A DNA stretch of 64,000 bases from Candidatus Parcubacteria bacterium (GCA_023396915.1 JAEWUV010000007.1:18077-82076), one strand, 5' to 3'. Positions 17,285 through 46,889 are shown, numbered from the stretch's first letter. Numbers and translations are program-made. Notes: generated by a model not told the origin, from the sequence alone.

Positions 17285-17306
17285 TTTCCCCTTCATCAAG
17301 GGGAAA
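17285..17306. repeat. GC-rich hairpin, YATC-loop family copy 1 (TTTCCCCTT-CATC-AAGGGGAAA)
   Basis: Seen directly, in the 44-nt rlmN-obg spacer. Confidence 0.5.
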
Positions 17307-17348
17307 TGTCACGGAGTGACAAAAGGGTTTAGCTGTTATAATACGTTC

Positions 17349-18299
17349 ATGCTTATTGACGAAGTTAATATTACTATCAAAGGTGGCGACGGGGGAAATG
17401 GTATCGTCCATTTCTATGCCGATGCCTTTCGACCCAAAGGCGGCCCTGACGGTGGTCGAGGGGGCAGTGGCGGTTCTGTTTACTTTGAGGGAGTTTCTGA
17501 CATTAGTAAATTAAATCAGTTTCGTCATTCCAAAGTTTATAGTGCCGAAAATGGTGAGAATGGTGGACGTAATAATCGGACTGGTAAGAATGGGGAAGAT
17601 TTAATTATTCCGGTTCCAGTTGGCACAGTTGCTAATTACGATAATGGTACTTCAATTGAAATCACCGATGTTGGTCAAAAAGTTTTAATGGCCAAGGGCG
17701 GCAACGGTGGCAAAGGTAACTTTATGTTTAAATCTGCCACTAATCAAACACCACAGGAACGTGAATTAGGTTTTAAATGTACTCCAAAAAAACTTTTTTT
17801 ACAGCTTAAACTTATTGCCCAAGTCGGTTTAATAGGGTTACCTAATGCCGGCAAAACCAGTCTTTTAAACGAACTTACTCCGGCCAATGCCAAAGTTGCC
17901 AATTATGCTTTTACTACTTTAGAGCCTAATTTAGGTGTTACTAGAGGGGGATTAATTATTGCCGATATCCCAGGGTTAATTGAAGGCGCTGCTAATGGCA
18001 AAGGTTTGGGTATTAAATTCTTAAAACACATCGAACGCACCAGATTATTAATTCATTGTATTTCTGCTGAATCAATTGACCCTCTCAAAGATTATCAGAC
18101 TATTCGAAATGAACTTTCTAATTACAGTTCTGTTTTAGCTAAAAAACCAGAAATAATTGTTTTAACAAAATCTGATGTTCTAGAGCCAAAAGAAATTAAA
18201 TCAGTCCAACAAAAAATCGGTGCCGACCTGGTTACTTCCATTATCGACACCGACAGTATCAAAAAGTTAAGTGATTTTATTACTAAAAGACTAAACTAA
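17349..18299 (+). CDS. obg: GTPase Obg/CgtA
   Basis: MLIDEVNITIKGGDGGNG...GGPDGGRGGSGGSVYF is the Obg fold, followed by G1-G4 GTPase motifs (GLPNAGKTSLLN). The ORF-track start at 17316 is probably an upstream extension. Confidence 0.9.
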   Translation: MLIDEVNITIKGGDGGNGIVHFYADAFRPKGGPDGGRGGSGGSVYFEGVSDISKLNQFRHSKVYSAENGENGGRNNRTGKNGEDLIIPVPVGTVANYDNGTSIEITDVGQKVLMAKGGNGGKGNFMFKSATNQTPQERELGFKCTPKKLFLQLKLIAQVGLIGLPNAGKTSLLNELTPANAKVANYAFTTLEPNLGVTRGGLIIADIPGLIEGAANGKGLGIKFLKHIERTRLLIHCISAESIDPLKDYQTIRNELSNYSSVLAKKPEIIVLTKSDVLEPKEIKSVQQKIGADLVTSIIDTDSIKKLSDFITKRLN

Positions 18300-18716
18300 A
18301 ACCTTTTTAACTTTACCCCAATCTTTCTTTAATTGTCCTACCAACTTTTTAGCCCCATCTTTGGTAGATTTTAAATCATTTTTAAATTCTTCCACCACAT
18401 CTTCCACAATCATCGCATATTTACTTTGATCAATCTCTTTACCGGCAGTCTTCACTTCCGCCACTTTTTCCATTACTGCAGTTTTAATTTGCTTATATTT
18501 AGCCACTGCTTCATCACTGACATCTCCAAAAACTTCCTTAACTTTATCTTTAGTATCTTTTACTCCGCTTTGGACCTCTTTACTAAGTTTATTTAACATC
18601 CTTTTAATGTCTTCTCTGGTTTTTTTACCCGACTGAGGCGCTAATAATAATCCACCCACAGCTCCGGCTGCCGCTGCTAATAATCCGGTTAAGAAAAATT
18701 TTCCTGTTTTTGCCAT
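18291..18716 (-). CDS. YtxH-like (DUF948) small membrane-associated protein
   Basis: N-terminal Gly/Ala helix (GLLAAAAGAVGGLLLAPQSGKKTREDIK), then a charged coiled coil. Overlaps the obg 3' end by 9 nt (convergent). Confidence 0.6.
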   Translation of the reverse strand: MAKTGKFFLTGLLAAAAGAVGGLLLAPQSGKKTREDIKRMLNKLSKEVQSGVKDTKDKVKEVFGDVSDEAVAKYKQIKTAVMEKVAEVKTAGKEIDQSKYAMIVEDVVEEFKNDLKSTKDGAKKLVGQLKKDWGKVKKVLV

Positions 18717-18756
18717 AATTTTTATTTAATTAATTAACAATTTAAGTCTAGAGGAA

Positions 18757-20574
18757 TTAAAAACTTCTGTCAATAAAATATACCCCGTTTTGCGATTCGC
18801 GCAAATCATATCCAAAAGCCCTACGGCTCACCGCAATAATTGGCGGCGCCTGAATCCTTTTAAAGTAACTTAATTTAAACATTGTCCATTTTTCTTCCAA
18901 ATCTTTTTTAAACTGATTTCTATTTTTAAAATATTTTTTAATTAAACCCTTTTTCATTTTCATTTCATCCTCAATTATTCCTCTGTCGTACCATTCTAAA
19001 ATCATTTTTGGATCTTTTCTGAATTCCACAAAAGCCCTGATTAATTTATCATGATAAGGGTAAAGAATTGGATCTCCTTGACCTTTAGCAGTATTTTGCT
19101 TATCGCTTAATTCTGCCGATGGTATTACTTCAAAAATTTCTTTTGGGATAATTTCTCTTTTGTTAGTTTTATTGATATATTCAGCCAATTCATAAATTTC
19201 CCACTTATACAAATCAGCCAATGGGCAAATTGCCCCATTCATATCACCATAAAGAGTTGTATAACCCAAAGCCATTTCTGTTTTATTAGCGTTATTAATT
19301 ATCACTCCACCGACCGCCGCTGCCACTCCGGCCAAAATTCTACTTCCTCTGTCTCGGGCTTGAATGTTTTCTAAAACTGTTTCGCTTACTTTAAAGCCAT
19401 TCTTTTTTAATTGTTTCTTGGTTAAATTTACTCCATCTTGGATTGGAATTATTTTATATTCTATTCCTAAATTTTTTGCCAATTTTTGTGCCGATTTTTT
19501 AGTTAAATTAGAATTAAATTTTGACGGCATATTAATCCCCAATACTTTTTCTTTTCCCAAAGCCGCTACCAATAAGCTGGCAGATACTGCCGAATCAATT
19601 CCACCGCTAACTCCGATTACTGCCCTATTTAATTTATTTTGTTCAAAAAACTTTTTAATTCCATAAACTAATCCTTCATATAACTCTTCCGTATCTCCTT
19701 GTCTCGCCATAGCTTTAAGTGTAGGCGGATTACTCAAATCCATTTCTAAAACACTTTCTTTATAAGCTTCAGCTGCCGCCGTTATTTCTCCTTTTTTACT
19801 ATAAATAGTCGAACTGCCATCAAATAAAAATATATTTTTCCCGTTGTTTTGTATCCCTACATTATTGCAATAAACAAAATCAACCCCAATTTTAGATAAT
19901 AATTTTTTAATAATTTGGTGTCTTTTATTATTTTTTTGCCAGGTCCAAGGGGAAGCCGAAATATTAACTATTAAATTTGCTCCGTTTTCAACTAAAATTT
20001 CAATTGGTTTTAAAAAATAATTTTCATCCCACATATCTTCACATAAACTCAACCCCAATTTTATTTTTTGATTTTTAACTTTTATTTCAAAAGGTTGCAG
20101 CAATTTTTTAATATCAATTTGTTCTTCGTTGGCCAATTTTTGCATTGAATAAAAATGCCTCTCATCATCAAATTCCCTATATTTAGGCATTAAAGTTTTA
20201 AAAGTATATCCCTTAAAAATTCCATTGTTTACCCATTTTGTATTAGAGGCAATAAATGCAGTATTGTATTTTCTTATTCTTCCATCTTCACCTAAAGCTT
20301 TAAAATCAGCAAAAATATTACCCCAAATCACTGTTATATTTTTACTTTCTTTTCTAATCTCTTCATTAATATCCATCAAATTTTTAATAAAACTTTCATT
20401 TTCCCACTCATCACCCAGCAAATAACCACTTACTGACATTTCCGGGAAAATTACTATATCGTCTTTATTTTTTCTCGCTTCTTTAATTTTTGAAATAATT
20501 TTTCTACCATTTATATCCGGTCTTCCGGCCACTACTTCCATCTGCACCACCGCAATTCTTATATTCTCCATCAC
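18757..20574 (-). CDS. nadE: glutamine-dependent NAD+ synthetase (CN-hydrolase + NadE domains)
   Basis: N-terminal nitrilase-like IRIAVVQME... and a C-terminal PP-loop VIGVSGGIDSAV. Confidence 0.85.
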   Translation of the reverse strand: MMENIRIAVVQMEVVAGRPDINGRKIISKIKEARKNKDDIVIFPEMSVSGYLLGDEWENESFIKNLMDINEEIRKESKNITVIWGNIFADFKALGEDGRIRKYNTAFIASNTKWVNNGIFKGYTFKTLMPKYREFDDERHFYSMQKLANEEQIDIKKLLQPFEIKVKNQKIKLGLSLCEDMWDENYFLKPIEILVENGANLIVNISASPWTWQKNNKRHQIIKKLLSKIGVDFVYCNNVGIQNNGKNIFLFDGSSTIYSKKGEITAAAEAYKESVLEMDLSNPPTLKAMARQGDTEELYEGLVYGIKKFFEQNKLNRAVIGVSGGIDSAVSASLLVAALGKEKVLGINMPSKFNSNLTKKSAQKLAKNLGIEYKIIPIQDGVNLTKKQLKKNGFKVSETVLENIQARDRGSRILAGVAAAVGGVIINNANKTEMALGYTTLYGDMNGAICPLADLYKWEIYELAEYINKTNKREIIPKEIFEVIPSAELSDKQNTAKGQGDPILYPYHDKLIRAFVEFRKDPKMILEWYDRGIIEDEMKMKKGLIKKYFKNRNQFKKDLEEKWTMFKLSYFKRIQAPPIIAVSRRAFGYDLRESQNGVYFIDRSF

Positions 20575-20585
20575 TCTAATTATAT

Positions 20586-21497
20586 CTAATTATTTATTTC
20601 TCGCTCCATCCAATGTCTGTCGATTTCTACTATTAGTTCTAAATACACTTTTCTGCCAGTCATTAACTCTATTTCTTTTCTGGCGTTGTAACCAATCTCT
20701 TTAATTTTTTTACCACCTCGTCCAATAATCATTTTTTTATATCTTTCAGCAGTAGTCAAAATCACCGCCTTCACCACAATAATATTTTTCTTGTCCACAA
20801 TTTCATCAACCCTAACATCCACTGAATAGGGAACTTCCTCTCGTAAAAATAAATAAGCCTTTTCCCTGATTAATTCTTGGATATATTCTTTTGAATTCAT
20901 CCCTATTTTGGGTCCGTTTTTATCTTTAACTAACTCAACATTATATTCAGTCTCTTTGTCAATTTCTTCCGGTAATAACTCAAAAATTAAATTAATTAAA
21001 CCCTTAATATTTTTATCTTTTATTGCACTTACCCCAATTACCCTGTCAAATTCATCTTCCAAATAGTTGTATTCCGGTAAATGATCTTTGGTATCTTTGG
21101 CTATATCAATCTTGTTGTAGACTAATATTTTTTTAGCTTTTGCCTTTCTCACTAATCCAATCACCTTATTTTCTTCCTCATTTTTAGGTCGTGAAATATC
21201 CACTAAACACAAAATTACATCAGCCTGATTTAATTCTTTTGGTGCCTCTTGATTAATTCTTTTTCCCATTAGATCATCAATTTTACCCATAATTCCGGGA
21301 GTATCAGTAAAAATAATATCTCCCCGTTCATCACTATAAACCACCCGGCTGTTTTTTCGGGTTGTCTGAGGTAGTGGAGAAGTAATCGCTACTTTTTGCG
21401 ACATAATCGCATTTAGTAAACTTGATTTACCGGTATTAGGCCGACCAATCAATACTACCCGCCCTACTTTTTTATTTTTACTACTTCTATTTTGCAC
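20586..21497 (-). CDS. era: GTPase Era
   Basis: G1 LIGRPNTGKSSLLN, DTPG, NKID, and a C-terminal KH domain. Confidence 0.85.
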   Translation of the reverse strand: MQNRSSKNKKVGRVVLIGRPNTGKSSLLNAIMSQKVAITSPLPQTTRKNSRVVYSDERGDIIFTDTPGIMGKIDDLMGKRINQEAPKELNQADVILCLVDISRPKNEEENKVIGLVRKAKAKKILVYNKIDIAKDTKDHLPEYNYLEDEFDRVIGVSAIKDKNIKGLINLIFELLPEEIDKETEYNVELVKDKNGPKIGMNSKEYIQELIREKAYLFLREEVPYSVDVRVDEIVDKKNIIVVKAVILTTAERYKKMIIGRGGKKIKEIGYNARKEIELMTGRKVYLELIVEIDRHWMEREINN

Positions 21498-21530
21498 AGG
21501 TGTATTTTACACTATAAAACTACTTATTAC

Positions 21531-21559
21531 TTGACACTTAGCAATCACAATGTTAGACT
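21531..21559 (+). promoter_or_regulatory. candidate promoter for lon (-35 TTGACA, 17-nt spacer, -10 TAGACT)
   Basis: Perfect TTGACA at 21531-21536. The -10 match is weaker, and the ATG follows 12 nt after it, so the leader is short. Confidence 0.3.
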
Positions 21560-21571
21560 GCTAAATAATAT

Positions 21572-23950
21572 ATGGATCAAAAACCAAATCAAGAGACGGC
21601 CTTACAACCAATCAGAAAAGTTTTACCTCTTATCCCTTTACGTAATATTATTCTTTTTCCGTCAGTCGAGACTTCGCTTTTCTTTGGTCGAAAAGAATCA
21701 ATGAATTCTTTACTTCACGCCTATGATCAAACAAATAAATTAGTTATTATCACTACCCAAAAAGATAGTCGGATTGATGACCCTAATTTAAATGATCTTT
21801 ATAACGTTGGTGTTTTAGCTAAAATCGAACACGTTCTTCAAACCGATGGGAATCTTCATGCCATTGTCAAAGGAATTTCCCGGGTTAATATTATCAATCT
21901 TACCAAAACCAAACCTCTGTTTTTAGCCGAATATATCGACCTTCCCATTATCCCCGAACCACTTTCTGAAGTCCAACAATCGGCTGAAGCTTTGTTAAGT
22001 CAGCTTAAAAAAGCTTTTGCTATGGGGCGTCAATTAGACCTACCTGCCATGATGCAACTCTCAAGTGGAGTTTCCAGCAGTGACTTAGCTGATCAAGTCG
22101 CCTTTACCCTTGATGCTAAAATACCTGAAAAACAAAACCTTTTAGAAACACTTTTAGTCAGCCAACGACTTAAAGCTGTTACTGAACATTTAATTCAGGA
22201 AATGAAAGTCGCTGAGCTAGAACGATCCATCGAGGAAAAAACCCAGGAAAAATTTAACACCGGTATCAAACGTAATGTATTGGAAGAAAGAAAACGTCAA
22301 ATCGAAAAAGAATTAAAACGGCTTGGGCAATCTTCTAGTGGTGGCGAATTTGATGAACTTGAAAAGAAAATTAAAAAACTTAAAGTTTCTCCAGAAATCA
22401 GAAAAAAACTAAAAAAGGAACTTGATCGTCTTATGGAAATGGGTTCTATGGCACCGGAGTCCAGTTATATCAAAACATATTTAGAAACAGTAGTCGAAAT
22501 GCCTTTTGGTAAATACAGTAAATCAGATGTTAGTTTATCCAAGGCCAGTAAGATTCTTGATAACGACCATTATGGTATCAAAGATGTCAAGGAAAGAATC
22601 CTAGAATATCTTGCTGTTGTTCAATTGAAGAATAAAATTAACACTAAAAAATTAAATGATGATTCTGCCACTGCCAATATACTTTGTTTTATCGGTCCTC
22701 CAGGCGTTGGTAAAACTTCCATTGGTAAATCTATTGCCGCCTCTTTAGGCCGGGAATTTGTCAGGGCTTCTATCGGTGGTATTCGTGACGAAGCTGAAAT
22801 TCGTGGTCATCGCCGAACTTATGTTGGTGCTATGCCTGGTCGAATTATCAAAGGCCTCAAAGATGCTAAAACTATGAATCCTGTTTTTATGCTCGATGAA
22901 GTTGATAAAATTGGCTCAGATTATCGTGGCGATCCATCATCAGCTCTATTGGAAACTCTCGATCCCGAACAAAATCGAGAATTTACCGATCACTATATCG
23001 ATTTTCCTGTTGACTTATCCAAGGTTTTCTTTATCTTAACCGGTAACGATTTGTCTACCATTCCCGGTCCTCTTCGTGATAGATTAGAAATCATTAATTT
23101 TTCTGGTTACACTTTAGACGAAAAATTTAATATCGCCAAGAAATATTTAGTTAAAAAAGAATTAACTGCCAACGGTCTACAACCCAAAGACATCACTGAA
23201 ATTGACGATGAAACTATAAAATATATCGTTGAAAAATATACTCGGGAAGCCGGTGTTCGTGGGTTAGATCGAGTAATCTCCTCACTTTTCAGAAAGGCCG
23301 CTAAAAAAATTATTACCGACAAAAAAACTCCAGTTGATTTAAATAACAAAACAATTCTTAAAAAATTTTTGGGTCCGGAAAAATTTTCTGCTACTCTTAA
23401 AGGTAAAAAAGATGAAATAGGTGTAGCCACTGGTTTAGCTTGGACTGCCGTTGGTGGAGACATTCTTTTTATCGAAGTTAATATTATGCCAGGTAAAGGC
23501 CAGTTAATTTTAACCGGAAAATTAGGTTCAGTTATGAAAGAGTCTTGTCAGGCGGCCCTTTCCTTTGTTCGCTCTCAGGCCAAAAATTTTGGCATTAAAC
23601 AAGACTTTCATAAAGTTGATATTCATATTCATGTACCCGAAGGTGCTACTCCAAAAGATGGTCCCAGTGCCGGCGGAGCTATTACTACCGCCCTTATTTC
23701 TGCTTTAAAAAATGTAGCCATACCAAAAGATATTGGTATGACCGGCGAGATTACTTTACGTGGAAATATTTTAGAAATTGGCGGGTTAAAAGAAAAATCA
23801 ATTGCCGCTCACCGAGCCGGCTTAAAAACTATTTTTATTCCCAAAGACAATCAAAAAACTTTAGTTGAAATTCCCAAGGAAGTCAAAAAAGATATTAAGT
23901 TTATTCCCGTCTCCCACTACTCCGAAATTTACAAAAAAATCTTTTCCTAA
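21572..23950 (+). CDS. lon: ATP-dependent Lon protease
   Basis: LON N-domain, Walker A GPPGVGKTS, and protease Ser in PKDGPSAGGAITTAL. Confidence 0.9.
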   Translation: MDQKPNQETALQPIRKVLPLIPLRNIILFPSVETSLFFGRKESMNSLLHAYDQTNKLVIITTQKDSRIDDPNLNDLYNVGVLAKIEHVLQTDGNLHAIVKGISRVNIINLTKTKPLFLAEYIDLPIIPEPLSEVQQSAEALLSQLKKAFAMGRQLDLPAMMQLSSGVSSSDLADQVAFTLDAKIPEKQNLLETLLVSQRLKAVTEHLIQEMKVAELERSIEEKTQEKFNTGIKRNVLEERKRQIEKELKRLGQSSSGGEFDELEKKIKKLKVSPEIRKKLKKELDRLMEMGSMAPESSYIKTYLETVVEMPFGKYSKSDVSLSKASKILDNDHYGIKDVKERILEYLAVVQLKNKINTKKLNDDSATANILCFIGPPGVGKTSIGKSIAASLGREFVRASIGGIRDEAEIRGHRRTYVGAMPGRIIKGLKDAKTMNPVFMLDEVDKIGSDYRGDPSSALLETLDPEQNREFTDHYIDFPVDLSKVFFILTGNDLSTIPGPLRDRLEIINFSGYTLDEKFNIAKKYLVKKELTANGLQPKDITEIDDETIKYIVEKYTREAGVRGLDRVISSLFRKAAKKIITDKKTPVDLNNKTILKKFLGPEKFSATLKGKKDEIGVATGLAWTAVGGDILFIEVNIMPGKGQLILTGKLGSVMKESCQAALSFVRSQAKNFGIKQDFHKVDIHIHVPEGATPKDGPSAGGAITTALISALKNVAIPKDIGMTGEITLRGNILEIGGLKEKSIAAHRAGLKTIFIPKDNQKTLVEIPKEVKKDIKFIPVSHYSEIYKKIFS

Positions 23951-23959
23951 ATTTTACAA

Positions 23960-24175
23960 TTATCGTCTTTCTTCCCGATTCTCTTTTTTGATTCTTTCAA
24001 ATGTCTTAGAAAATATCGTGTCAGCAATACCACCACTACCATCTAAACTAATAGTATCAAGCACTCCCAGCCAAAATCTTTGCTTGTCACTGAGCCCTTT
24101 CAAAATAACTGAATCTCTCCCTTCAGAAGCACTTATCACCCTTTCTCTTATATTCATACAAAAGCATTGTAGCAC
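23960..24175 (-). CDS. possible small hypothetical protein (65-71 aa)
   Basis: Minus-strand ORF co-directional with the argS operon. The opposing plus ORF is S/P/L-rich antisense-type sequence. Confidence 0.35.
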   Translation of the reverse strand: MLQCFCMNIRERVISASEGRDSVILKGLSDKQRFWLGVLDTISLDGSGGIADTIFSKTFERIKKENREERR

Positions 24176-24211
24176 CTAATCATTAACATCCTGAAATCTA
24201 CATTTTTTTGG

Positions 24212-24604
24212 CTAAGATCTACGTGGAACCAAATCTTTCCAATTAGCATCTTGATATAGCTCAACTAGCTTCTTAACCTCCCTTCTCGCCCCCCACGGAG
24301 ACCTAACTTTTACAGTTCTACTTGAAAAATTACTTTCCAAACTATTTGGCTTATCAAGGTTTAAAAAAACACGATGCCCAAAATTTCTACCAGAATCTCC
24401 TACAGTACAATCACTAGCCTCTAATATCATAAAATTTCCTTCCTCATTCAATAAAACAGTCCTCGGGAAAATATCACCACCAGCAACATAATCATTTTTA
24501 CCTTGTTCGCCTCTTTTTCTAAATTCACTTACTACAGCCGCTGCCACCCTTCCAAATTCTTTCCCCGTCCCCTCATATGGTTTAATCTCAATAATATTTG
24601 ACAT
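24212..24604 (-). CDS. hypothetical protein (130 aa), no recognised domain
   Basis: Intact ORF, 38 nt after the upstream ORF on the same strand. Confidence 0.5.
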   Translation of the reverse strand: MSNIIEIKPYEGTGKEFGRVAAAVVSEFRKRGEQGKNDYVAGGDIFPRTVLLNEEGNFMILEASDCTVGDSGRNFGHRVFLNLDKPNSLESNFSSRTVKVRSPWGARREVKKLVELYQDANWKDLVPRRS

Positions 24605-24642
24605 CCAGGGAGTCTATCACATCTTTTCTACTGTTTCTATTC

Positions 24643-25059
24643 CTATAACTTCTGTTTCTTTCCTATTTGAGTCATTTCTCTTATCAATATATCACCAACA
24701 GAATATGGGTCATGAACTAAATATTGTCTTTCACCAAAAGAAACTCTTAACTTATCACTATTTTCATCGATCCCTGAAATTGATATTGGGATACCATCAC
24801 CAATAAAAGTTGAAACATTATTTGGTTGTCGTTGAATTACACAGGGGCCGTTACTATTTGTTAATATATCCGCACTAATTAATCCTTCTAGTATCTTTGG
24901 TATGTCTTTCCTGGAAATATTAGGTAATTCTCGTCTTGTTCCTAGACCTATTTCTTCTACTATCCTATGAACCTCTGACTTGACAGGATCATCAGGTACT
25001 GAAGTTTCAGCCTGCTTTACTCTTTTACCAATTGATACAAGAACATCCTTTAGATTCAT
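24643..25059 (-). CDS. hypothetical protein (138 aa), no recognised domain
   Basis: Intact ORF beginning 21 nt after the argS stop, same strand. Confidence 0.5.
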   Translation of the reverse strand: MNLKDVLVSIGKRVKQAETSVPDDPVKSEVHRIVEEIGLGTRRELPNISRKDIPKILEGLISADILTNSNGPCVIQRQPNNVSTFIGDGIPISISGIDENSDKLRVSFGERQYLVHDPYSVGDILIREMTQIGKKQKL

Positions 25060-25080
25060 AAGTCAAATGATATCACACTA

Positions 25081-26790: not shown

Positions 26791-26791
26791 A

Positions 26792-27172: not shown

Positions 27173-27198
27173 AAAACCCAGTCGAATGTGTTATCCTT

Positions 27199-29835: not shown

Positions 29836-29845
29836 AATTAAAATT

Positions 29846-29875
29846 AAAAAAATGCTCCCCTTTATCAAGGGGAGC
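29846..29875 (-). terminator. rho-independent terminator for the minus-strand RGG/Zn-ribbon gene; also a member of the YATC-loop hairpin family
   Basis: Perfect 9-bp stem GCTCCCCTT/AAGGGGAGC with loop TATC (29854-29875), followed on the minus strand by T7. Confidence 0.5.
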
Positions 29876-29902
29876 TGTCGAACAAAGTGAGACTGAGGGG
29901 TT

Positions 29903-30370
29903 TTATTCTTGAGTTTCTATTGGAGTTTCAACTCTCTTTACTTTTTTGACTTTCTTAACAGATTTTTCAACCACTGGCATTGGTTTTTGAGTAGTTAAAA
30001 GGTCAATAATTCTATCAAGTTTTTTATTTAAAGCTTCAATCTCAGCTCGGGTATTATCCTGTCTGTAATCCTTAACATCTCTTTGTTCAAATCTTCGGTT
30101 ATTGCCACCAAAATCTCTATTCCCGCCGTCACGGCCACTGGTTTTTTCAAAACAATTACTGCAATAAACCGGTTTTTCACCAGTTGGTCTGAAAGGTAAT
30201 TCACATTCAGCTCCGCATTTATCACAAATAGCCGAAAACATCTGACGATCTTCTCGATTTCTGTCAAAACCACCTCTGCTTCCACCACCAAAGCTTCGAC
30301 CTCGGTTTCCACCGCCAAAACTTCTGTTGCTAAAATTTTTAAATCCACGATCATTTCCAAAATTTTTCAT
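29903..30370 (-). CDS. small RGG/RG-rich protein with a CxxC-x17-CxxC zinc ribbon (nucleic-acid-binding type)
   Basis: N-terminal GGGNRGRSFGGGSRGGFDRNR repeats, CDKCGAECELPFRPTGEKPVYCSNC, a second RG-rich stretch, and a Lys-rich C-terminus. Confidence 0.55.
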   Translation of the reverse strand: MKNFGNDRGFKNFSNRSFGGGNRGRSFGGGSRGGFDRNREDRQMFSAICDKCGAECELPFRPTGEKPVYCSNCFEKTSGRDGGNRDFGGNNRRFEQRDVKDYRQDNTRAEIEALNKKLDRIIDLLTTQKPMPVVEKSVKKVKKVKRVETPIETQE

Positions 30371-37783: not shown

Positions 37784-37785
37784 AT

Positions 37786-39324: not shown

Positions 39325-39400
39325 TATTAAAATTTACCATAAAAAATCTTTAAACAACTTACCCAAATAAAACCCAAAACATTTTGGTAAAATATAAGTT

Positions 39401-41401: not shown

Positions 41402-44057
41402 AATAATTGTCAAAGGGGCCAAAGAAAACAATCTTAAAAATGTTTCTTTTGACTTCCCTAAAAATAAATTAGTCGTATTTACCGGAGTTTCTGGTTCCGG
41501 TAAATCATCTATGGCTTTCGACACTCTTTTTGCCGAAGGTCAACGTCGCTATGTTGAAAGTCTTTCCTCTTATGCCCGTCAATTTTTAGGTAATATGAAA
41601 CGCCCCGAAGTTGATTTAATCGAAGGTCTTTCTCCGTCGATTGCCATCAACCAAAAAGCTATTTCTCATAACCCCAGATCAACCGTTGGTACAGTCACTG
41701 AAATTTATGATTACTTGCGTTTACTTTTTGCCAGAATCGGACACCCGCATTGTCCCGAGTGTGGTCGCGAGGTTTCCCCTCAAACCAGTCGCCAAATTGT
41801 TAATCAGATTTTAGATATTGCCCAAATTGAAGTTAAAGGTCTAAATCTTTTTCGATTTTTGGTTTTATCTCCTTTAGTACGTGATAAAAAAGGGGATTTT
41901 AAAGGTCTTGCCGAAAACCTTAAAAAACAGGGTTATAAATGGATTCGGGTCGATAACCAAATTATCGATTTATATTCTGATTTCGGTATTGCCAAAACTA
42001 ACAAACATAATATTGATGTTATCGTTGACAGGGTTTCCCTTAATAAAGAAAATCTAAAAGATACCAAACCAATTTCTGACAGATTAATTGATGGGGTTGA
42101 ACAAAGTATGAAGTTGGCTAACGGTCTGGTTATTATCGCTCAAGTTTTTGATACTGGTTTTGATTTTCCTGACAGACCTGCAAGTTTAAAAGATACCCTA
42201 TTTTCTGAAAATTTTGCCTGTCCTCATTGTAATATTTCACTTCCCGAAATCGAACCCAGACTTTTTTCTTTCAATTCACCTCAGGGTGCTTGTCTGGAAT
42301 GTAAAGGTCTTGGCTCTAAATTTCAAATTGATCGGTCTAAATTTCCCGAATGGCGGGCCAGAATGATGGAAAGCCGTTATGTTAATTCGGGATCAGATGC
42401 CATCCGCGATGAATTAGAAAAATTCATGACTAAAACTGAGTGTTTATCTTGTCATGGTTCCCGTCTTAATCCGGAAGCTCTTTCCGTCCATATTTTAGGC
42501 AAAAATATTTATGAAGTTACTCAACTTCCCATAGAAAAACTCAACATTTGGTTAAATGAGCTGTCTTCAAAATTAAACAGTGACAAAGAAAAAGAAATTG
42601 TCGATCCAATTAAAAAAGAATTGGCCGCCAGAATTGAATTTTTATTGGCTGTCGGTTTAGACTATCTAAGTCTTGATAGGGAAGCAGGGACACTCTCTAG
42701 TGGTGAGTCGCAACGAATTAGACTTGCCAGCCAGATTGGCACTGGTCTTACTGGAGTCCTTTATATCCTAGACGAACCAACCATTGGTCTTCATTCCCGT
42801 GATAACGACAGGCTTATCGGCACTCTCAAAAAACTTCGTGACCTAGGAAATTCATTAGTAGTTGTTGAGCATGATGAAGATGTTATAAAATCTGCTGATT
42901 ATATAGTTGATTTTGGCCAATATGCTGGTAAAAACGGCGGTGAAGTCATCTCTCAAGGTTCATTGGAAGATATTAAAAAAAATAATAAATCTTTAACTGG
43001 AAAATATTTGTCCGGAAAACTACAAATAAAAAGTAATATTGATTCACATATTAACAATCCTGATTATAAAATTTCTATAAAAGGTTGCCGTCAATGGAAC
43101 TTAAAAAATATTAATGTCAACTTCCCTCTTAATAAATTAATTTGTGTTACCGGAGTCTCCGGATCAGGTAAATCTACTTTGGTTCACGACACTCTTTATG
43201 GCGGTGTTCGCAAAGCCACACTTGGTAATTACTATGGAACCATAGGAGAATATGATGAAATAACTGGCGCCGATAAAGTTTCTGATGTTTTACTGGTTGA
43301 TCAATCTCCTATTGGTCGCACTCCTCGTAGTAATCCGGCTACATATACTAAAATTTTTGATGATATTCGAAACTTGATGGCCCAAACTGTTGAAGCCCAA
43401 ATTCGTGGCTACAATTCCAGTCGTTTTTCTTTTAATGTCAAAGACGGTCGCTGTCCAGTTTGTCAGGGCCAAGGCCAAATTAAAATTGAAATGCAATTTC
43501 TACCCGATATTTATGTTACTTGTGATGAATGTCATGGAACACGTTTCAAAGAGGAAACTTTGGAAGTTGAATATAAAGGCAAAAATATTGCCCAAATCCT
43601 AAACATGACCATTGATGAAGCCGCCGAATTTTTCAAAAATATTCCCCGTCTTCGTCGCAATTTAGAGACAATTCAATCAGTAGGGTTAGGTTATTTGGAA
43701 TTGGGTCAGGCTTCAAATACCCTTTCCGGAGGGGAGTCTCAACGTTTAAAAATCAGCCGTGAGTTAGTCAAAAAAGAAAACGGTAAAATGCTTTATATCC
43801 TAGACGAACCAACCACTGGACTTCACTTTTATGACGTTGATAAATTAATCAAAGTTTTGCGTCAATTAGTCGATAAAGGGAACACTGTTGTTTTAATTGA
43901 ACATAATTTAGATGTCATCAAAAACGCCGATTGGATTATTGATATGGGCCCGGAAGGTGGCGAAAAGGGTGGAGAAGTTGTTGCCGTTGGCACAGTTCAG
44001 GATATTATCAATTGTTCTCGTAGCTACACCGGCCAATACCTCAAAAAAAATCTTTAA
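41391..44057 (+). CDS. uvrA: excinuclease ABC subunit A
   Basis: Two ABC cassettes (GVSGSGKSS...; signature LSGGESQR twice) and zinc-finger Cys pairs. Confidence 0.9.
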   Translation: MVDKIIVKGAKENNLKNVSFDFPKNKLVVFTGVSGSGKSSMAFDTLFAEGQRRYVESLSSYARQFLGNMKRPEVDLIEGLSPSIAINQKAISHNPRSTVGTVTEIYDYLRLLFARIGHPHCPECGREVSPQTSRQIVNQILDIAQIEVKGLNLFRFLVLSPLVRDKKGDFKGLAENLKKQGYKWIRVDNQIIDLYSDFGIAKTNKHNIDVIVDRVSLNKENLKDTKPISDRLIDGVEQSMKLANGLVIIAQVFDTGFDFPDRPASLKDTLFSENFACPHCNISLPEIEPRLFSFNSPQGACLECKGLGSKFQIDRSKFPEWRARMMESRYVNSGSDAIRDELEKFMTKTECLSCHGSRLNPEALSVHILGKNIYEVTQLPIEKLNIWLNELSSKLNSDKEKEIVDPIKKELAARIEFLLAVGLDYLSLDREAGTLSSGESQRIRLASQIGTGLTGVLYILDEPTIGLHSRDNDRLIGTLKKLRDLGNSLVVVEHDEDVIKSADYIVDFGQYAGKNGGEVISQGSLEDIKKNNKSLTGKYLSGKLQIKSNIDSHINNPDYKISIKGCRQWNLKNINVNFPLNKLICVTGVSGSGKSTLVHDTLYGGVRKATLGNYYGTIGEYDEITGADKVSDVLLVDQSPIGRTPRSNPATYTKIFDDIRNLMAQTVEAQIRGYNSSRFSFNVKDGRCPVCQGQGQIKIEMQFLPDIYVTCDECHGTRFKEETLEVEYKGKNIAQILNMTIDEAAEFFKNIPRLRRNLETIQSVGLGYLELGQASNTLSGGESQRLKISRELVKKENGKMLYILDEPTTGLHFYDVDKLIKVLRQLVDKGNTVVLIEHNLDVIKNADWIIDMGPEGGEKGGEVVAVGTVQDIINCSRSYTGQYLKKNL

Positions 44058-45571
44058 TTACATTTTTCTCTAATTTCTACCGTCGTTCTCCATCCCGTTT
44101 TCCATTTATCTACCGTGCAATAATCATTAAATTGATTTAACCATCCCACATATAAATCTTTAGTTTCATAAATTAGGGCAATTTTGCCATCAGCATCAAT
44201 CCTCATTTTTTCATAAAACTTATTTTGGGTTCGGATATATTCTGGCACTTCGGTCAAACTATACGACACTTTATTCGGCATATAACCATATTTCTTAATT
44301 CCATACCACCAATACAAATATTGATTTGGATAATCATAAATTTCTGGTACATAACTAAATGCCTCAAATCCTTTTCCCTCCATTTCTTCATAAACCCAAT
44401 CAATACTTTTAATTAAATTAGCCAAATTTTTCGGATCGTCACTTGTCTTTTGTTTAACAAACTGCCATTGATCTGCACTAACTAAGTAGACATTTCTAAG
44501 TAACAAAACCCCAACCAATAAAAATACTACCTTTTTAAATTTATTTATATTTACTAATCCAATTCCAACTACAAAACAATACCAAACCCTTAAACTTTCC
44601 AAATACCACCCTTTTAATTCGTGATGATATATCGCTGTATAAAATAAGAATGCAAAAACCAAAAATGAAATAAAATAAAGTCCTATTTTTCGATATTTTT
44701 TATTGATTAAAATTAGTACAACCGCCGCTATTAAAATTCCTAAACCCCAACCATAATTGGCGATAAATTGACCCTCAAAAAACTTCCTAATAGTCGTTAA
44801 GTGTGAAATTACAACTTCACTAAATTTCATTTTGTCTCCAAGAACATTATTTCCTCCAGAAAAAATACCAAGTAGTAATTTTGTCATTTGAAACCTATTC
44901 TTTATTTCCAAAAGAATTTGCGGCAAAAACCAGGGGAGGACTCCAATTAAAAAACCTTTCCATGAATTTACTCTTTTGTTTAAAATAATTATCAAAACTG
45001 AAAATATCAAACAAACGATTCCAAAAGCCGCTTCAAACTGAGTTAAGACCGCACTGGTTATACCCAGCCATAAAATTGATTTTTTATCCTTTTTTTCAAT
45101 AAAATTCCATAATGCTACAAAAAAATAAACGCTCAAATAAGCCGCCATATTCGCATTCCAAAAATATCTAGTCCAATTAAATATCTGTGGTGCCATTAAA
45201 AACAAAGTTGCTATCAAAAATCCTAAGATCTTATTTCTTTTTCTAAAATACCAATAAATAAATCCTCCGGAAAACAAAAATAGAATTATATTCCAATAAA
45301 CCAAAGCCTGTGGGTTGCCCATTCCTACCCAAAAAGCGGGTAAATTTATGTAGTAATAAAATGGCCCTAATCTCAATCCGTTAATTGAAGTTGTTGGCCC
45401 CAAAACTGCCAAATCCTTAAATGTCCCCAAGGCTCTAATGTCCAACATGTCGCGTGCCTGGTCATAAGTAAAAAAAGTATTGTAATTTTTAACTTGTAAA
45501 AATCTGACGATTCCTGAAACCAAAAAAACAATACTAAAAATTATCGTTAAAAATTTTTCCATTCTTTTCAT
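44054..45571 (-). CDS. polytopic membrane protein, GT-C-like (ArnT/PMT-type glycosyltransferase suspected)
   Basis: 505 aa with more than 10 TM helices and a short periplasmic-type C-terminal soluble region. Stop overlaps the uvrA stop (convergent). Confidence 0.5.
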   Translation of the reverse strand: MKRMEKFLTIIFSIVFLVSGIVRFLQVKNYNTFFTYDQARDMLDIRALGTFKDLAVLGPTTSINGLRLGPFYYYINLPAFWVGMGNPQALVYWNIILFLFSGGFIYWYFRKRNKILGFLIATLFLMAPQIFNWTRYFWNANMAAYLSVYFFVALWNFIEKKDKKSILWLGITSAVLTQFEAAFGIVCLIFSVLIIILNKRVNSWKGFLIGVLPWFLPQILLEIKNRFQMTKLLLGIFSGGNNVLGDKMKFSEVVISHLTTIRKFFEGQFIANYGWGLGILIAAVVLILINKKYRKIGLYFISFLVFAFLFYTAIYHHELKGWYLESLRVWYCFVVGIGLVNINKFKKVVFLLVGVLLLRNVYLVSADQWQFVKQKTSDDPKNLANLIKSIDWVYEEMEGKGFEAFSYVPEIYDYPNQYLYWWYGIKKYGYMPNKVSYSLTEVPEYIRTQNKFYEKMRIDADGKIALIYETKDLYVGWLNQFNDYCTVDKWKTGWRTTVEIREKCN

Positions 45572-45593
45572 ACTTTCATTATATAATACCTGT

Positions 45594-46889
45594 GTGTTTG
45601 ATTTAACCCATATTCCAACATCTCCTGGTGTTTATATTTACAAAGACGCTAGTGGCAAAATAATTTATATTGGCAAAGCCGTTAATCTAAAAAAACGGGT
45701 TTCTCAATATTTTCAGTCTGATCAAGCTTTGGGTTATAAAACTTCCCGACTAGTTTCTCAAATTGTTGATATTAACTTCCATACTGTTGGTTCTGAAATT
45801 GAAGCCCTGATATTAGAATCAAGTCTTATCAAACAATATCGTCCTAAATTTAATTCCCAACTCAAAGACGATAAAAGTTATGTCTATATCACCATTACCA
45901 AAGATAAATTCCCCCTAATTAAACCGGCTTTCAAATCAACTCTAAACAAAGATGATTTGTTTTATGGCCCTTTCCCTGACAGCCGTTCGGTCAAAAATCT
46001 TTTAAAAACTATCCGCCACATATTCCCTTATTATTCAAAAAAACACGGCGGTAAAAAATGTTTATATTGTCACCTTGGATTATGTCCAGGACCAAATCCA
46101 AATCTAAAGGAATATAAGGCCAACATTAAAAATATCAAAAAAATATTTAACGGTCATATCAGGAAGCTTATCTTTCAACTTAAAAAAGAAATGGACGCTT
46201 TTTCAAAAGATGAAAACTTTGAAATGGCCAAAGTAAGACGTGATCAAATAAACTCTCTAACTTACATTACCTCTGGTTGGCGAAACTTAAGTAATCTTTA
46301 CCAAGATATCGAATTTAAAGAAGACAAATTTCAAAAAGCTACAGACGAGTTAATTCTTACTTTATCTTCATATTTTCCAAACATTAAAAAGATTAATCGT
46401 ATCGAAGTCTATGATATTTCCAATTTAGGATCCAAAGTTTTTGTCGGCGCCATGACTGTTTATCAAAATGGCAAAATTGACAATTCAGCTTATCGTCAAT
46501 TTAAAATCAACAGTAAAACTATTCCCGATGATCAATTTATGATTAAAGAAGTTATTTATCGTCGTCTTAAACATCCTGAATGGGGGAAACCTGATTTGAT
46601 TTTAGTCGATGGTGGCAAACCTCAAGTTTCTGCCGCTAATCAAGCAATTGAAATGCAATTACAGTCTCCCCTCCTTTCATCAAAGGAGGGGATTAAGGGG
46701 TGGATTTTTGGTATTCCTGTTCTTGGTCTTGCTAAAAAATTCGAAACCCTAGTTATAAAAACAACCGATACTTGGGTTGAAATTAACTTACCCAAAAATT
46801 CTCCAGCACTTCAACTTCTTCAACAACTCCGAGACGAAGCCCACCGCTTCTCCAACCGTTACCGAAAAAAACTTTTAAAAATAAATTAA
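45594..46889 (+). CDS. uvrC: excinuclease ABC subunit C, short form lacking the C-terminal (HhH)2 domain
   Basis: GIY-YIG (GVYIYKDASGKIIYIGKAVNLKKRVSQYF), UVR-like helix, RNase-H-like nuclease domain (EVYDISNLGS...), and a C-terminal DEAHRFS. 431 aa, with no HhH motifs after it. Confidence 0.8.
   Translation: MFDLTHIPTSPGVYIYKDASGKIIYIGKAVNLKKRVSQYFQSDQALGYKTSRLVSQIVDINFHTVGSEIEALILESSLIKQYRPKFNSQLKDDKSYVYITITKDKFPLIKPAFKSTLNKDDLFYGPFPDSRSVKNLLKTIRHIFPYYSKKHGGKKCLYCHLGLCPGPNPNLKEYKANIKNIKKIFNGHIRKLIFQLKKEMDAFSKDENFEMAKVRRDQINSLTYITSGWRNLSNLYQDIEFKEDKFQKATDELILTLSSYFPNIKKINRIEVYDISNLGSKVFVGAMTVYQNGKIDNSAYRQFKINSKTIPDDQFMIKEVIYRRLKHPEWGKPDLILVDGGKPQVSAANQAIEMQLQSPLLSSKEGIKGWIFGIPVLGLAKKFETLVIKTTDTWVEINLPKNSPALQLLQQLRDEAHRFSNRYRKKLLKIN
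46667..46692. repeat. GC-rich hairpin, YATC-loop family copy 3, embedded in frame in uvrC (TCCCCTCCTTT-CATC-AAAGGAGGGGA)
   Basis: Perfect 11-bp stem with a CATC loop. It encodes SPLLSSKEGI inside the UvrC RNase-H-like domain, at a position where UvrC proteins vary in length. Confidence 0.45.

What the first reader, a model, noticed from the sequence alone, without database searches (positions are those of the whole stretch)
17285..46692. Small family of GC-rich hairpins sharing a YATC loop and CCCCTT/AAGGGG arms; one copy sits in frame inside uvrC
I found three copies. Copy 1 is TTTCCCCTT-CATC-AAGGGGAAA at 17285-17306 (rlmN-obg spacer). Copy 2 is GCTCCCCTT-TATC-AAGGGGAGC at 29854-29875 (between the aminopeptidase and the RGG gene; it doubles as a terminator). 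Copy 3 is TCCCCTCCTTT-CATC-AAAGGAGGGGA at 46667-46692, which lies inside the uvrC reading frame. In an AT-rich genome, runs of CCCC/GGGG are rare, so three perfect hairpins with the same loop and near-identical arms are unlikely to be independent. Copy 3 is translated as SPLLSSKEGI within the UvrC RNase-H-like domain, exactly where UvrC sequences vary in length. This resembles the in-frame insertion of palindromic elements into ORFs described for Rickettsia RPEs. It could be a tiny mobile/recombinogenic palindrome, a protein-recognised stem-loop, or a convergent terminator motif that happened to be captured in a gene.
Basis: seen in the sequence. Interest (0 to 1): 0.55.

Follow-up and report, generated by a model that had tools for sequence, protein, structure and literature searches.

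The report
Triplex-type DNA repeats, one inside uvrC
The three hairpins are copies of a small dispersed DNA repeat built like a three-stranded (triplex) fold; it can sit in frame inside essential genes such as uvrC, and pairs of it bracket a small endonuclease gene that may be what moves it.

Summary
All three hairpins are at the stated coordinates. Each is two-thirds of a larger element: pyrimidine arm, 4-nt loop, purine arm, linker (3 nt or a mini-hairpin), then a G/T tract that mirrors the purine arm. This is the design of a class II purine-motif intrastrand triplex, the kind known in E. coli as BoxC/PIT/TMECO.

The family is abundant in Shapirobacteria and other Microgenomates and occurs in further phyla. 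Copy 3 is a 39-nt, 13-codon insertion in a UvrC loop. A relative with ~94% identical uvrC lacks exactly those 39 nt, the insertion is patchy in the UvrC tree, and the same sequence occurs at non-uvrC sites.

About a quarter of 100 copies lie in frame inside housekeeping genes. Orientation follows GC skew (56 of 63 on the C-rich strand) and not gene direction, which argues for a DNA-level element rather than an RNA-level one.

New lead: inverted pairs of the element bracket a DUF559 (Vsr-like) endonuclease gene in 16 of 16 loci examined, including the source genome. E. coli ycjD (DUF559) runs into a degenerate BoxC and has TMECO #9 167 nt downstream. This resembles the REP/RAYT arrangement. The nuclease's role and triplex formation in cells are inferred, not shown.

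The parts
17285..17329 (+). Triplex-motif (TM) element copy 1, long form. Y arm TTTCCCCTT 17285-17293; loop CATC 17294-17297; R arm AAGGGGAAA 17298-17306; mini-hairpin linker TGTCAC-GGA-GTGAC 17307-17320; third tract AAAAGGGTT 17321-17329, followed by T.
   Evidence: The mirror match is 8/9. L096 carries what appears to be the orthologous copy in the same spacer (same downstream TGTATAAT box and start codon). The same mini-hairpin (TGTCAC GAA GTGAC) occurs at a non-orthologous site, L059 5585, in the uvrB-uvrA spacer. No terminator-like site on either strand.
29854..29902 (+). TM element copy 2, long form. Y arm GCTCCCCTT 29854-29862; loop TATC 29863-29866; R arm AAGGGGAGC 29867-29875; degenerate linker TGTCGAACAAAGTGAGAC 29876-29893; third tract TGAGGGGTT 29894-29902. 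It abuts the stop codon (29903-29905) of the minus-strand gene.
   Evidence: L083 carries a near-identical copy (linker differs at 2 positions), probably orthologous. The GC-type stem base pairs with T in the third tract in 11 of 11 family members. Read on the minus strand, the hairpin plus ATTTTTTTAA is terminator-like.
46667..46706 (+). TM element copy 3, short form, in frame in uvrC. Y arm TCCCCTCCTTT 46667-46677; loop CATC 46678-46681; R arm AAAGGAGGGGA 46682-46692; linker TTA 46693-46695; third tract AGGGGTGGATT 46696-46706. The 39 nt equivalent to the L013/L022 indel are 46666-46704.
   Evidence: (mirror 11/11, direct 9/11).
45594..46889 (+). uvrC (431 aa; GIY-YIG, UvrC_M and RNase H-like domains; no C-terminal HhH domain), host of copy 3.
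46608..46739 (+). UvrC linker DGGKPQV...GLAKK, a recurrent insertion site. It is 24 codons in the minimal form and 44 here. Relatives carry other in-frame hairpin elements at the same place.

Best explanation
The three hairpins are the Watson-Crick part of three copies of a dispersed 30-50-nt DNA repeat. Its architecture is: homopyrimidine arm, 3-4-nt loop, homopurine arm, linker, then a G/T(A) tract that mirrors the purine arm. This is the design of a class II purine-motif intrastrand triplex (G.G-C, A.A-T and T.A-T triads with the third strand antiparallel to the purine arm). It is a Microgenomates (candidate phyla radiation, CPR) counterpart of E. coli BoxC/PIT/TMECO, with two variations: AT-richer arms, and often a mini-hairpin in place of the second loop.

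Shown here:
- The element exists and has this architecture.
- It is dispersed and is present or absent with exact boundaries.
- Its orientation follows GC skew rather than gene direction.
- Its Y/R composition is nearly free of stop codons, and it is tolerated in frame in loops of housekeeping proteins, including uvrC in this window.
- Inverted pairs, with the third tracts outermost, bracket a roughly 135-160-aa DUF559 (Vsr-like PD-(D/E)XK) endonuclease gene. One such unit is in the source genome.

Inferred:
- The element acts as DNA, folding when single-stranded at replication forks or in repair or uptake intermediates.
- The DUF559 nuclease recognises the folded ends and drives gain and loss of solo copies in trans, as RAYT does for REPs.
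- The strand bias arises either from a strand-specific reaction or from selection against the triplex-forming strand on the lagging-strand template.
- Copy 2 is additionally co-opted as the terminator of the minus-strand gene.
For: Architecture:
- All element-like hairpins carry the mirror tract on one strand only. The custom finder gives 26 on the uvrC-sense strand, 6 on the other, and about 2 in shuffles.
- Of 121 genome-wide hits to the bare hairpin, chosen without regard to a third tract, 69 have a perfect AGGGG[AT][AT] within 45 nt on exactly one side. Chance is about 1% per side.
- Among 143 asymmetric strand readings, 72 have a mirror tract and 32 a direct tract, and 29 of the 32 also have the mirror tract. 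Triad counts are G.G 503, A.A 208, T.A 207 and other 39.
- Three-way covariation occurs at the stem base, including T opposite a C-G inversion in 11 of 11 cases.
- No Rfam family matches, even at E<=5.

Known kind:
- Holder et al. 2015 (PMC4666352) and the work they cite show that such motifs fold into stable triplexes as single-stranded DNA, that the purine motif does not form in RNA, and that the E. coli motifs had no promoter or terminator activity.

Dispersal and turnover:
- A clean 39-nt indel separates uvrC genes that are about 94% identical.
- The uvrC insertion is patchy in at least 4 lineages of the UvrC tree.
- The copy-3 sequence type occurs at three non-uvrC loci.
- Identical mini-hairpins occur at non-orthologous sites.
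- Density reaches about one element per 1.5 kb in some genomes.

DNA level rather than RNA level:
- 56 of 63 elements lie on the strand that is C-rich after correction for gene direction (p about 1e-10). Relative to gene orientation the split is 51 to 46.
- Within the source genome, orientation flips with the skew.

In-frame copies:
- 26 of 100 elements lie deep in ORFs. Pfam confirms PheS, TsaD, TrxB-like, Fpg, MiaA, QueA, Rho and EPSP synthase as hosts.
- 87% of elements have at least 2 open frames in sense, against 24% for random AT-rich sequence.

DUF559:
- 9 of 9 tblastn hits in the hairpin-scan loci lie next to or between elements.
- The source-genome copy P0122 is bracketed by two elements.
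- Five further homologues, picked by homology and contig length only, sit in five different conserved operons. Six of the seven loci examined (these five genes plus the source-genome copy) have both inverted elements.
- E. coli ycjD ends inside a degenerate BoxC, and TMECO #9 lies 167 nt downstream on the same strand.
- P0122 matches the PDB entry 3HRL, an endonuclease-like protein.
Against: - No structure was measured here. In E. coli, in vivo DMS footprinting did not detect a stable triplex.
- Copy 1's third tract is 8/9, and copy 2's linker is a degenerate hairpin.
- The DUF559 link is genomic association only. PD-(D/E)XK Vsr-like nucleases are not known transposases, no target-site duplication was seen, and there is no DUF559 gene in the window.
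- In three genomes the DUF559 unit sits at the same secE-adjacent locus, which fits vertical inheritance as well as mobility.
- Insertion and precise deletion cannot be told apart from the filled/empty pair. The tree is neighbour-joining only.
- Many loci were selected because they contain the hairpin.
- Gene calls for the context statistics are crude ORF calls.
- Reading the GC-skew sign as leading or lagging strand is an inference.
Confidence: 0.7

Rival explanations
1. RNA-level element: the hairpins are intrinsic terminators or 3'-UTR stabilisers that arose convergently downstream of genes, and one was captured in uvrC.
For: Many copies start 6-24 nt after a same-strand stop codon, or abut the stop of an opposite-strand gene. 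Copy 2 read on the minus strand is a hairpin followed by ATTTTTTTAA. T's follow the third tract.
Against: Orientation is unrelated to gene direction (51 to 46) but tied to GC skew. Several copies are antisense between co-directional genes. Copy 1 has no U-run on either strand. The third tract mirrors the purine arm rather than repeating it, so it cannot serve as an alternative Watson-Crick partner. A quarter of copies lie inside ORFs. PIT elements showed no terminator activity in E. coli. In these compact genomes any intergenic element is necessarily close to a gene end.
Confidence: 0.1
2. Hairpin-end MITE of a known single-strand transposase system (REP/RAYT or IS200/IS605 TnpA), with the third tract incidental.
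For: The element is a small hairpin repeat with a replication-strand orientation bias, inverted pairs flank a single small ORF, and no target duplication is seen. All of this resembles REP/RAYT and IS200/IS605 (established knowledge of those families).
Against: The bracketed ORF is DUF559 (PF04480), not an HUH/Y1 transposase. The third tract covaries with the arms and is present in essentially every copy.
Confidence: 0.07
3. Not mobile: an ancestral uvrC loop sequence kept by selection on the peptide, with the nucleotide resemblance to copies 1 and 2 coincidental.
For: The peptide SPLLSS(K/R)EGIKGW is conserved in several UvrC orthologues.
Against: The same nucleotide element occurs at non-coding and other loci. 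A near relative (~94% identical uvrC) lacks exactly the element. Other relatives carry unrelated hairpin elements at the same codon position. The insertion is patchy in the tree. One orthologue (P0039) has extra residues exactly at the hairpin loop.
Confidence: 0.03
4. A polar chromosome signal: a strand-skewed motif read by a replication, segregation or recombination protein (like KOPS or Chi), rather than a selfish repeat.
For: There is a strong orientation skew relative to GC skew. The tracts are G-rich, and some contain GGGNAGGG-like words.
Against: The G-rich tracts lie on the C-rich strand, opposite to the usual leading-strand placement of KOPS and Chi (established knowledge). Copy number differs enormously between related genomes: 3 in 64 kb here against at least 6 in 8 kb in L120. 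Presence/absence polymorphism and in-ORF copies fit a selfish element better. The DUF559 bracket is left unexplained.
Confidence: 0.08

Closest known systems
BoxC / PIT elements / TMECO: class II purine-motif intrastrand triplex repeats of E. coli and other bacteria (Hoyne et al. 2000 and 2002, as cited in Holder et al. 2015, PMC4666352)
   Same: The order is the same: Y arm, loop, R arm, loop, reverse-Hoogsteen G-rich tract. Stems are 7-11 nt and the first loop is 3-6 nt. In the short form the second loop is 3 nt and often TTA, as in TMECO type A. Both show a recurrent G-opposite-A mismatch in the stem. Both are multi-copy, occur as inverted pairs, are gained and lost between close relatives, and match no known RNA family.
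   Different: The sequence differs: AT-richer arms such as TCTCCCCTT/AAGGGGAGA with T.A-T triads. In the long form the second loop is a 12-20-nt mini-hairpin, outside the 1-6-nt loops of the ITxF search. TMECO is 'always intergenic', whereas about a quarter of copies here are in frame in genes. No strand bias was reported for E. coli, whereas here orientation follows GC skew. No mobility gene was found for TMECO, whereas here a DUF559 gene is bracketed by the elements. The lineage is CPR.
REP elements and their RAYT transposase (REPINs)
   Same: Small structured repeats are scattered between genes, and a pair in inverted orientation brackets one small enzyme gene that is thought to act on the solo copies in trans. 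This is the same organisation.
   Different: The enzyme here is a Vsr-like PD-(D/E)XK endonuclease domain (DUF559), not an HUH/Y1 transposase. The repeat is a three-tract triplex design, not a simple hairpin with a GTAG head. No activity has been shown.
Rickettsia palindromic elements (RPEs)
   Same: Selfish palindromic repeats inserted in frame into many unrelated housekeeping genes, adding a peptide segment at tolerated surface positions.
   Different: RPEs are about 100-150 bp, specific to Rickettsia and unrelated in sequence. They have no triplex-type third tract and no associated nuclease gene.
Intrinsic (Rho-independent) terminators
   Same: A GC-containing hairpin just after stop codons. 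Copy 2 on the minus strand has the hairpin plus U-run.
   Different: Most copies lack a U-run directly after the hairpin, orientation is independent of transcription, and copies occur inside ORFs.

Membership tests
Class II purine-motif intrastrand triplex motif (BoxC/PIT/TM) | Homopyrimidine arm and homopurine arm form a Watson-Crick hairpin (stem 6-15, at most one mismatch) | tested here: met
   Copies 1-3 have perfect stems of 9, 9 and 11 with pure Y and R arms, except the G-C base pairs at the foot of copy 2.
Class II purine-motif intrastrand triplex motif (BoxC/PIT/TM) | A third tract lies 3' of the purine arm and mirrors it (antiparallel), giving G.G-C, A.A-T or T.A-T triads | tested here: met
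   Mirror matches are 8/9 (copy 1), 8/9 (copy 2) and 11/11 (copy 3); direct-repeat matches are 8/9 (equal for copy 1), 6/9 and 9/11. Family-wide: 69 of 121 unbiased hairpin hits have the tract; mirror 72 against direct 32; 96% of triads are canonical.
Class II purine-motif intrastrand triplex motif (BoxC/PIT/TM) | Both loops are short (1-6 nt in the ITxF definition; N3-6 and N3 in TMECO) | tested here: inconclusive
   Copy 3 meets this (loops of 4 and 3 nt, TTA). Copies 1 and 2 have second linkers of 14 and 18 nt that form, or once formed, a mini-hairpin. This is a structural variant outside the published search window.
Class II purine-motif intrastrand triplex motif (BoxC/PIT/TM) | Folds into a triplex as single-stranded DNA (CD, NMR, melting) | not testable with these tools
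   Shown for TMECO by Holder et al. 2015. Not measured for these sequences.
TMECO proper | Consensus CCCTCNCCC N3-6 GGGNGAGGG N3 GGGNGAGGG | tested here: not met
   The window copies have different arms. Only some relatives approach the consensus: L006 1432 and the three tandem copies in L134.
REP/RAYT (REPIN) system | The repeats bracket an HUH/Y1 RAYT transposase gene | tested here: not met
   The bracketed gene is DUF559/PF04480 in all 16 loci. The bracket arrangement itself is present.
Rickettsia palindromic elements | In-frame insertion into ORFs of unrelated genes | tested here: met
Rickettsia palindromic elements | Roughly 100-150-bp element with RPE family sequence, in Rickettsia | tested here: not met
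   The elements are 30-50 nt and occur in CPR genomes.
Intrinsic terminator | GC-rich hairpin directly followed by a U-run on the transcribed strand | tested here: inconclusive
   Met for copy 2 on the minus strand only. Not met for copy 1 or for copy 3, which is inside an ORF.

The most novel reading that the evidence does not exclude
The triplex-motif repeats and the DUF559 endonuclease gene they bracket form a previously unrecognised kind of selfish element that runs from E. coli (BoxC with ycjD) to the candidate phyla radiation. In this reading a Vsr-like PD-(D/E)XK nuclease recognises triplex- or hairpin-folded single-stranded ends and spreads or excises solo copies in a replication-strand-specific way. 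The copies are compact and stop-free enough to colonise the reading frames of essential genes. This would give BoxC/PIT elements, unexplained since the 1990s, an origin and a mechanism, and would give DUF559 a function.
Probability: 0.45. Interest if true: 0.9.

Novelty: new variant of a known kind. Interest (0 to 1): 0.8.

Why it matters
Intrastrand triplex repeats (BoxC/PIT/TMECO) have been known for about 25 years. They have had no function, no mobility gene and no reported strand bias, and in E. coli they were reported as strictly intergenic. This window leads to four additions.

1. A large CPR family has the same design, with a mini-hairpin in place of the second loop, which published triplex searches would miss.
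2. Copies routinely sit in frame inside essential genes (uvrC, uvrA, RNR, aminoacyl-tRNA synthetases, TsaD, Rho, FtsH). This matters for annotating and modelling CPR proteins, and for explaining some of their unusual insertions.
3. Orientation follows GC skew rather than gene direction, which points to single-stranded DNA biology rather than RNA.
4. The elements consistently bracket a DUF559 endonuclease gene, and this holds for E. coli ycjD too. That makes the old question of what BoxC elements are directly testable in E. coli.

Tried and rejected
- Rfam at gathering threshold on the window, and at E<=5 on two element-rich loci: only tRNAs and noise.
- Third tract as a direct repeat, giving an alternative Watson-Crick partner (terminator/antiterminator switch): rejected, because asymmetric arms match the mirror and not the direct sequence.
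- Third tract or purine arm as a Shine-Dalgarno sequence: rejected, because no start codon lies at a suitable distance (reading).
- Terminator reading: tested with the consensus scan; it fits only copy 2 on the minus strand.
- Rarity of CCCC as an argument: not upheld.
- Phage carriage: the 18-mer hairpin has no match in 2.9 million viral contigs.
- DUF559 in the window: none by tblastn.
- Target-site duplication: none seen at the uvrC indel or at the ends of the DUF559 units.
- Literature searches for CPR with palindromic in-frame repeats, Patescibacteria with triplex, BoxC with triplex, and DUF559: nothing links these elements to CPR, to coding insertions or to DUF559 in the held library. 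The library is incomplete.

Full report
OBSERVATION. The window has about 35% G+C, is densely coded, and comes from a Candidatus Shapirobacteria (Microgenomates, CPR) genome, judged from the names carried by UvrC homologues. Copy 1 starts 13 nt after the stop of the rlmN-like gene. Copy 2 lies between convergent genes. Copy 3 is in frame in uvrC at 45594-46889. Only 11 perfect hairpins with a stem of at least 9 exist in the 64 kb, and these are three of them. A degenerate core pattern is found 6 times against 1.07 expected. Folded as DNA, the three give z-scores of -4.9, -2.7 and -3.6. The claim that CCCC runs are rare is overstated: there are 242.

THE HAIRPIN IS ONLY PART OF THE ELEMENT. I compared the window with 79 uvrC loci from metagenomes. 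Every such hairpin is followed, on one strand only, by a linker and a third tract that covaries with the arms. The linker is either 2-5 nt, often TTA, or a small GC hairpin such as TGTCAC-GGA-GTGAC. The third tract is the mirror image of the purine arm, with G opposite G and A or T opposite A. In copy 3 the purine arm AAAGGAGGGGA is followed by TTA and then AGGGGTGGATT, an 11/11 mirror match against 9/11 as a direct repeat. It is therefore neither a direct repeat nor a Watson-Crick partner of the pyrimidine arm.

A purpose-built finder gave 26 elements on the uvrC-sense strand, 6 mostly weak ones on the other strand, and about 2 in shuffled sequence. An unbiased test used a scan of 185,579 species genomes for the bare hairpin TCCCCTTYATCAAGGGGA. 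Of the 121 hits, 69 have a perfect AGGGG[AT][AT] within 45 nt on exactly one side, where chance is about 1% per side. Anchoring on hairpins alone, asymmetric arms are followed by a mirror tract in 72 of 143 strand readings, that is, in essentially every hairpin on one of its two strands. A direct tract follows in 32, and 29 of those also have the mirror tract. Triad counts are G.G 503, A.A 208, T.A 207 and other 39. The base of the stem covaries three ways: T-A with A; C-G with G; and G-C (an inversion) with T in 11 of 11 cases.

WHAT KIND OF THING THIS IS. Pyrimidine arm, purine arm, then an antiparallel G/T tract is the textbook design of a purine-motif intramolecular triplex. The literature search found the matching natural class: 'class II' intrastrand triplex motifs, known in E. 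coli as BoxC, then PIT elements, then TMECO, with consensus CCCTCNCCC N3-6 GGGNGAGGG N3 GGGNGAGGG and a second loop of TTA or CCG (Holder et al. 2015, PMC4666352). That paper and the work it cites report the following. The motif folds into a stable triplex as single-stranded DNA. Purine-motif triplexes do not form in RNA. The E. coli motifs have no promoter or terminator activity and are always intergenic. No mobility gene was found near them, and their loci are unusually rearranged between strains.

The elements here share the order of parts, stem lengths, the TTA linker of the short form, a recurrent G-opposite-A stem mismatch, and occurrence as inverted pairs. They differ in sequence, in the mini-hairpin that replaces the second loop in the long form (outside the 1-6-nt loops that paper searched), and in the points below. 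No Rfam family matches them.

COPY 3 IS AN INSERTION, AND THE FAMILY TURNS OVER. In an alignment of 46 UvrC orthologues, the segment between DGGKPQVSAA and IPIIGLAKK ranges from a minimal form to forms 13-29 residues longer. SPLLSS(K/R)EGIKGW is present in some close relatives and absent from others that are equally close. Against the solved T. maritima UvrC endonuclease domain (2NRR), the window protein has 15 extra residues between a helix and the next strand.

Two uvrC genes about 94% identical in nucleotide sequence, on contigs found in the same sample series, differ by a clean 39-nt indel that is the element: CTCCCCTTCTTTCGTCAAAGGAGGGGAATAAGGGGTGGA, between ...AAT and TTTTGG. In a neighbour-joining tree built without the linker, the insertion appears in at least four separate places, and the window's nearest relatives lack it. 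One orthologue has extra residues exactly at the hairpin loop.

The same sequence type also occurs at three non-uvrC sites in other genomes. The mini-hairpin of copy 1 recurs with a different first hairpin in a uvrB-uvrA spacer. Apparent orthologues of copies 1 and 2 exist in other species (L096, L083). At the same uvrC codon position, other relatives carry different in-frame hairpins, so this loop is a recurrent landing site.

IN-FRAME COPIES ARE COMMON. Of 100 good elements in low-GC loci, 26 lie deep inside ORFs of at least 200 aa, in sense or antisense and as long or short forms. Pfam confirms PheS, TsaD, a thioredoxin-reductase-like protein, Fpg, MiaA, QueA, Rho and EPSP synthase as hosts. 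By eye the hosts also include ValRS, TsaC/TsaE, FtsH, HolB and UvrA. The source genome's ribonucleotide reductase carries one too, read in antisense as KPFPNPSLDRAG. The Y/R composition makes the elements nearly free of stop codons: 87% have at least two open frames in sense and 78% in antisense, against 24% for random AT-rich sequence. This is the same phenomenon as Rickettsia palindromic elements, produced by an unrelated element.

DNA LEVEL, NOT RNA LEVEL. Element orientation shows no relation to the direction of surrounding genes: 51 against 46, with a mean of 47% of coding bases on the element strand. After removing the transcription component of GC skew, by averaging the skew of genes on the two strands, 56 of 63 elements lie on the C-rich strand (p about 1e-10). 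In 27 loci all elements are on that strand, and in 3 loci none are. In the window the + strand is C-rich throughout and carries all three copies. In another stretch of the same genome the + strand is G-rich, and the solo copy is on the minus strand. By the usual rule that the leading strand is G-rich (established knowledge; an inference for CPR), the triplex-forming strand is preferentially the template of the leading strand. That could reflect a strand-specific reaction. It could equally reflect loss of copies whose folding strand would be exposed as lagging-strand template. Copy 1 has no terminator features on either strand. Copy 2 looks like a terminator only for the minus-strand gene, which I read as co-option.

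THE DUF559 LINK. One Peregrinibacteria EPSP synthase gene is split in frame by a DUF559 domain (PF04480, E = 6.6e-27) that is flanked by two inverted short elements. A tblastn search with that segment found DUF559 homologues in 9 of the 117 hairpin-scan loci, and every one lies next to or between elements.

In Microgenomates the unit reads as follows:
- a reversed element;
- about 20 nt of spacer;
- an ORF of about 136-143 aa, beginning VKYITD in the closest homologues;
- a forward element that overlaps the last roughly 12 codons of the ORF.
The third tracts are outermost, giving AAACCCCT...AGGGGTTT as terminal inverted repeats.

A homologue 84% identical (P0122) is encoded on the same 906,714-bp scaffold as the window's UvrC, between secE and nrdR, with both elements in place. 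Five further homologues, chosen by homology and contig length only, sit in five different conserved contexts: Fic|ligA, dnaJ|HTH, PPDK|acetyltransferase, tsf|frr and secY|adk. Of the seven loci examined, six have both inverted elements and all seven have at least one.

In E. coli K-12 the DUF559 gene ycjD ends in ...CACCCTCTCCCTGA followed by a degenerate purine arm. Next come a partial duplicate of its 3' end with a GGGTTAGGGG remnant, and then TMECO #9, 167 nt downstream on the same strand. With 23 TMECOs in 4.6 Mb, this is about a 0.2% coincidence by my estimate.

P0122 matches the solved 'endonuclease-like protein' 3HRL. None of the 25 papers in the held library that mention DUF559 connects it with these repeats, and Holder et al. 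state that they never found mobility functions near TMECOs. The arrangement is that of REP elements around their RAYT gene, but with a different enzyme fold. That the nuclease acts on the elements is inference.

CAVEATS. No structure or activity was measured. In E. coli a stable triplex was not seen in vivo. Many loci were selected because they contain the hairpin. Gene calls for the context statistics are crude. Insertion and precise deletion cannot be polarised. No target-site duplication was seen. The secE-adjacent DUF559 unit is shared by three genomes and may be vertically inherited.

VERDICT. It is a new variant of a known kind (BoxC/PIT/TMECO-type intrastrand triplex repeats). It has three properties not described for that kind: frequent in-frame residence in essential genes, orientation tied to GC skew, and a mini-hairpin linker. 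It also has a consistent association with a DUF559 endonuclease gene, which, if functional, would explain these repeats from E. coli to the CPR.

Noticed in passing
window 14967-14994 (+), inside the tRNA-dihydrouridine synthase-like ORF 14469-15533: A second in-frame palindrome family: GTAGAGACGCAT-CATG-ATGCGTCTCTAC, a perfect 12-bp stem translated VETHHDASL. The same GTAGAGACG...CGTCTCTAC hairpin occupies the uvrC linker site in relatives (L006, L008, L016, L035, translated VETFCKTSLQ). It also occurs in a miaA gene (L175), at L040 687 and at L101 4618: 8 copies in the loci held.
   Followed up: partly
L006 11083-11125, L016 7733-7780, L035 1277-1320, L007 1400-1430 (uvrC linker): Short tandem AATCTACGATCTACAATCTA-type repeats (translated NLRSTIYNL) follow the GTAGAGACG hairpin in frame in uvrC of some relatives. 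A further in-frame motif, CCCTGAG(T/C)GAACAT(A/C)GTGA(G/T)T(C/T)GAAGG (translated LSEHSESKG), sits at the same site in L004, L026 and L047.
   Followed up: no
window 17334-17351: The obg-like gene seems to start at ATG 17349, not at the GTG 17316 of the ORF list. An extended -10 box, TGTTATAAT (17334-17342), ends 6 nt upstream of that ATG. The same box and spacing are seen in L096 and L092. This suggests a leaderless transcript that begins right after element copy 1.
   Followed up: partly
L117 2353-4158 (Peregrinibacteria MFXK01000016.1): An EPSP synthase ORF of 601 aa is interrupted in frame by a complete DUF559 endonuclease domain (residues 342-449) flanked by two inverted short triplex motifs, and it carries a third element near its N-terminus. 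Pfam splits the EPSP synthase match into two stretches. It is not known whether the enzyme still works.
   Followed up: partly
L083, L086, L087, L091, L094, L096, L100, L108, L120, L125, L128 and others: Many MAGs titled 'uncultured Gammaproteobacteria bacterium' have 31-36% G+C. They carry the Microgenomates form of the element, including apparent orthologues of window copies 1 and 2. Their taxonomic label looks wrong.
   Followed up: no
L134 about 4600-4760 in DUF559 orientation (CAZHHM010000005.1): Directly after a DUF559 gene in a genome of about 50% G+C come three tandem copies of CTCCCTCTCCC-TGTTA-AGGGAGAGGG-ACG-GGGTGAGGG. This is nearly the E. coli BoxC/TMECO consensus, and the gene's reading frame runs into the first copy.
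   Followed up: no
L022 1308-2334 versus L013 11269-11276: The strain without the uvrC element has about 1 kb between uvrC and the next shared segment, and this stretch has no match in the strain with the element.
   Followed up: no
window 45594-46889: UvrC here, and in all close relatives, is only about 411-448 aa and lacks the C-terminal helix-hairpin-helix domain found in standard UvrC proteins of about 600 aa.
   Followed up: no
window 57846-57871: The hairpin AAAAGCCCGGC-AGTT-GCCGGGCTTTT, flanked by A's and T's, looks like a classical bidirectional intrinsic terminator. It shows what ordinary terminators look like in this genome, in contrast to the triplex-type elements.
   Followed up: no
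L097 1742-1900 (Saccharibacteria CAZKWN010000062.1): An array of four or five CCTTCCTT-TATT/GATA-AAGGAAGG elements precedes a DUF559 ORF and is read through in frame as a repetitive N-terminal extension (NPSNLPLLRKGDN repeated).
   Followed up: no
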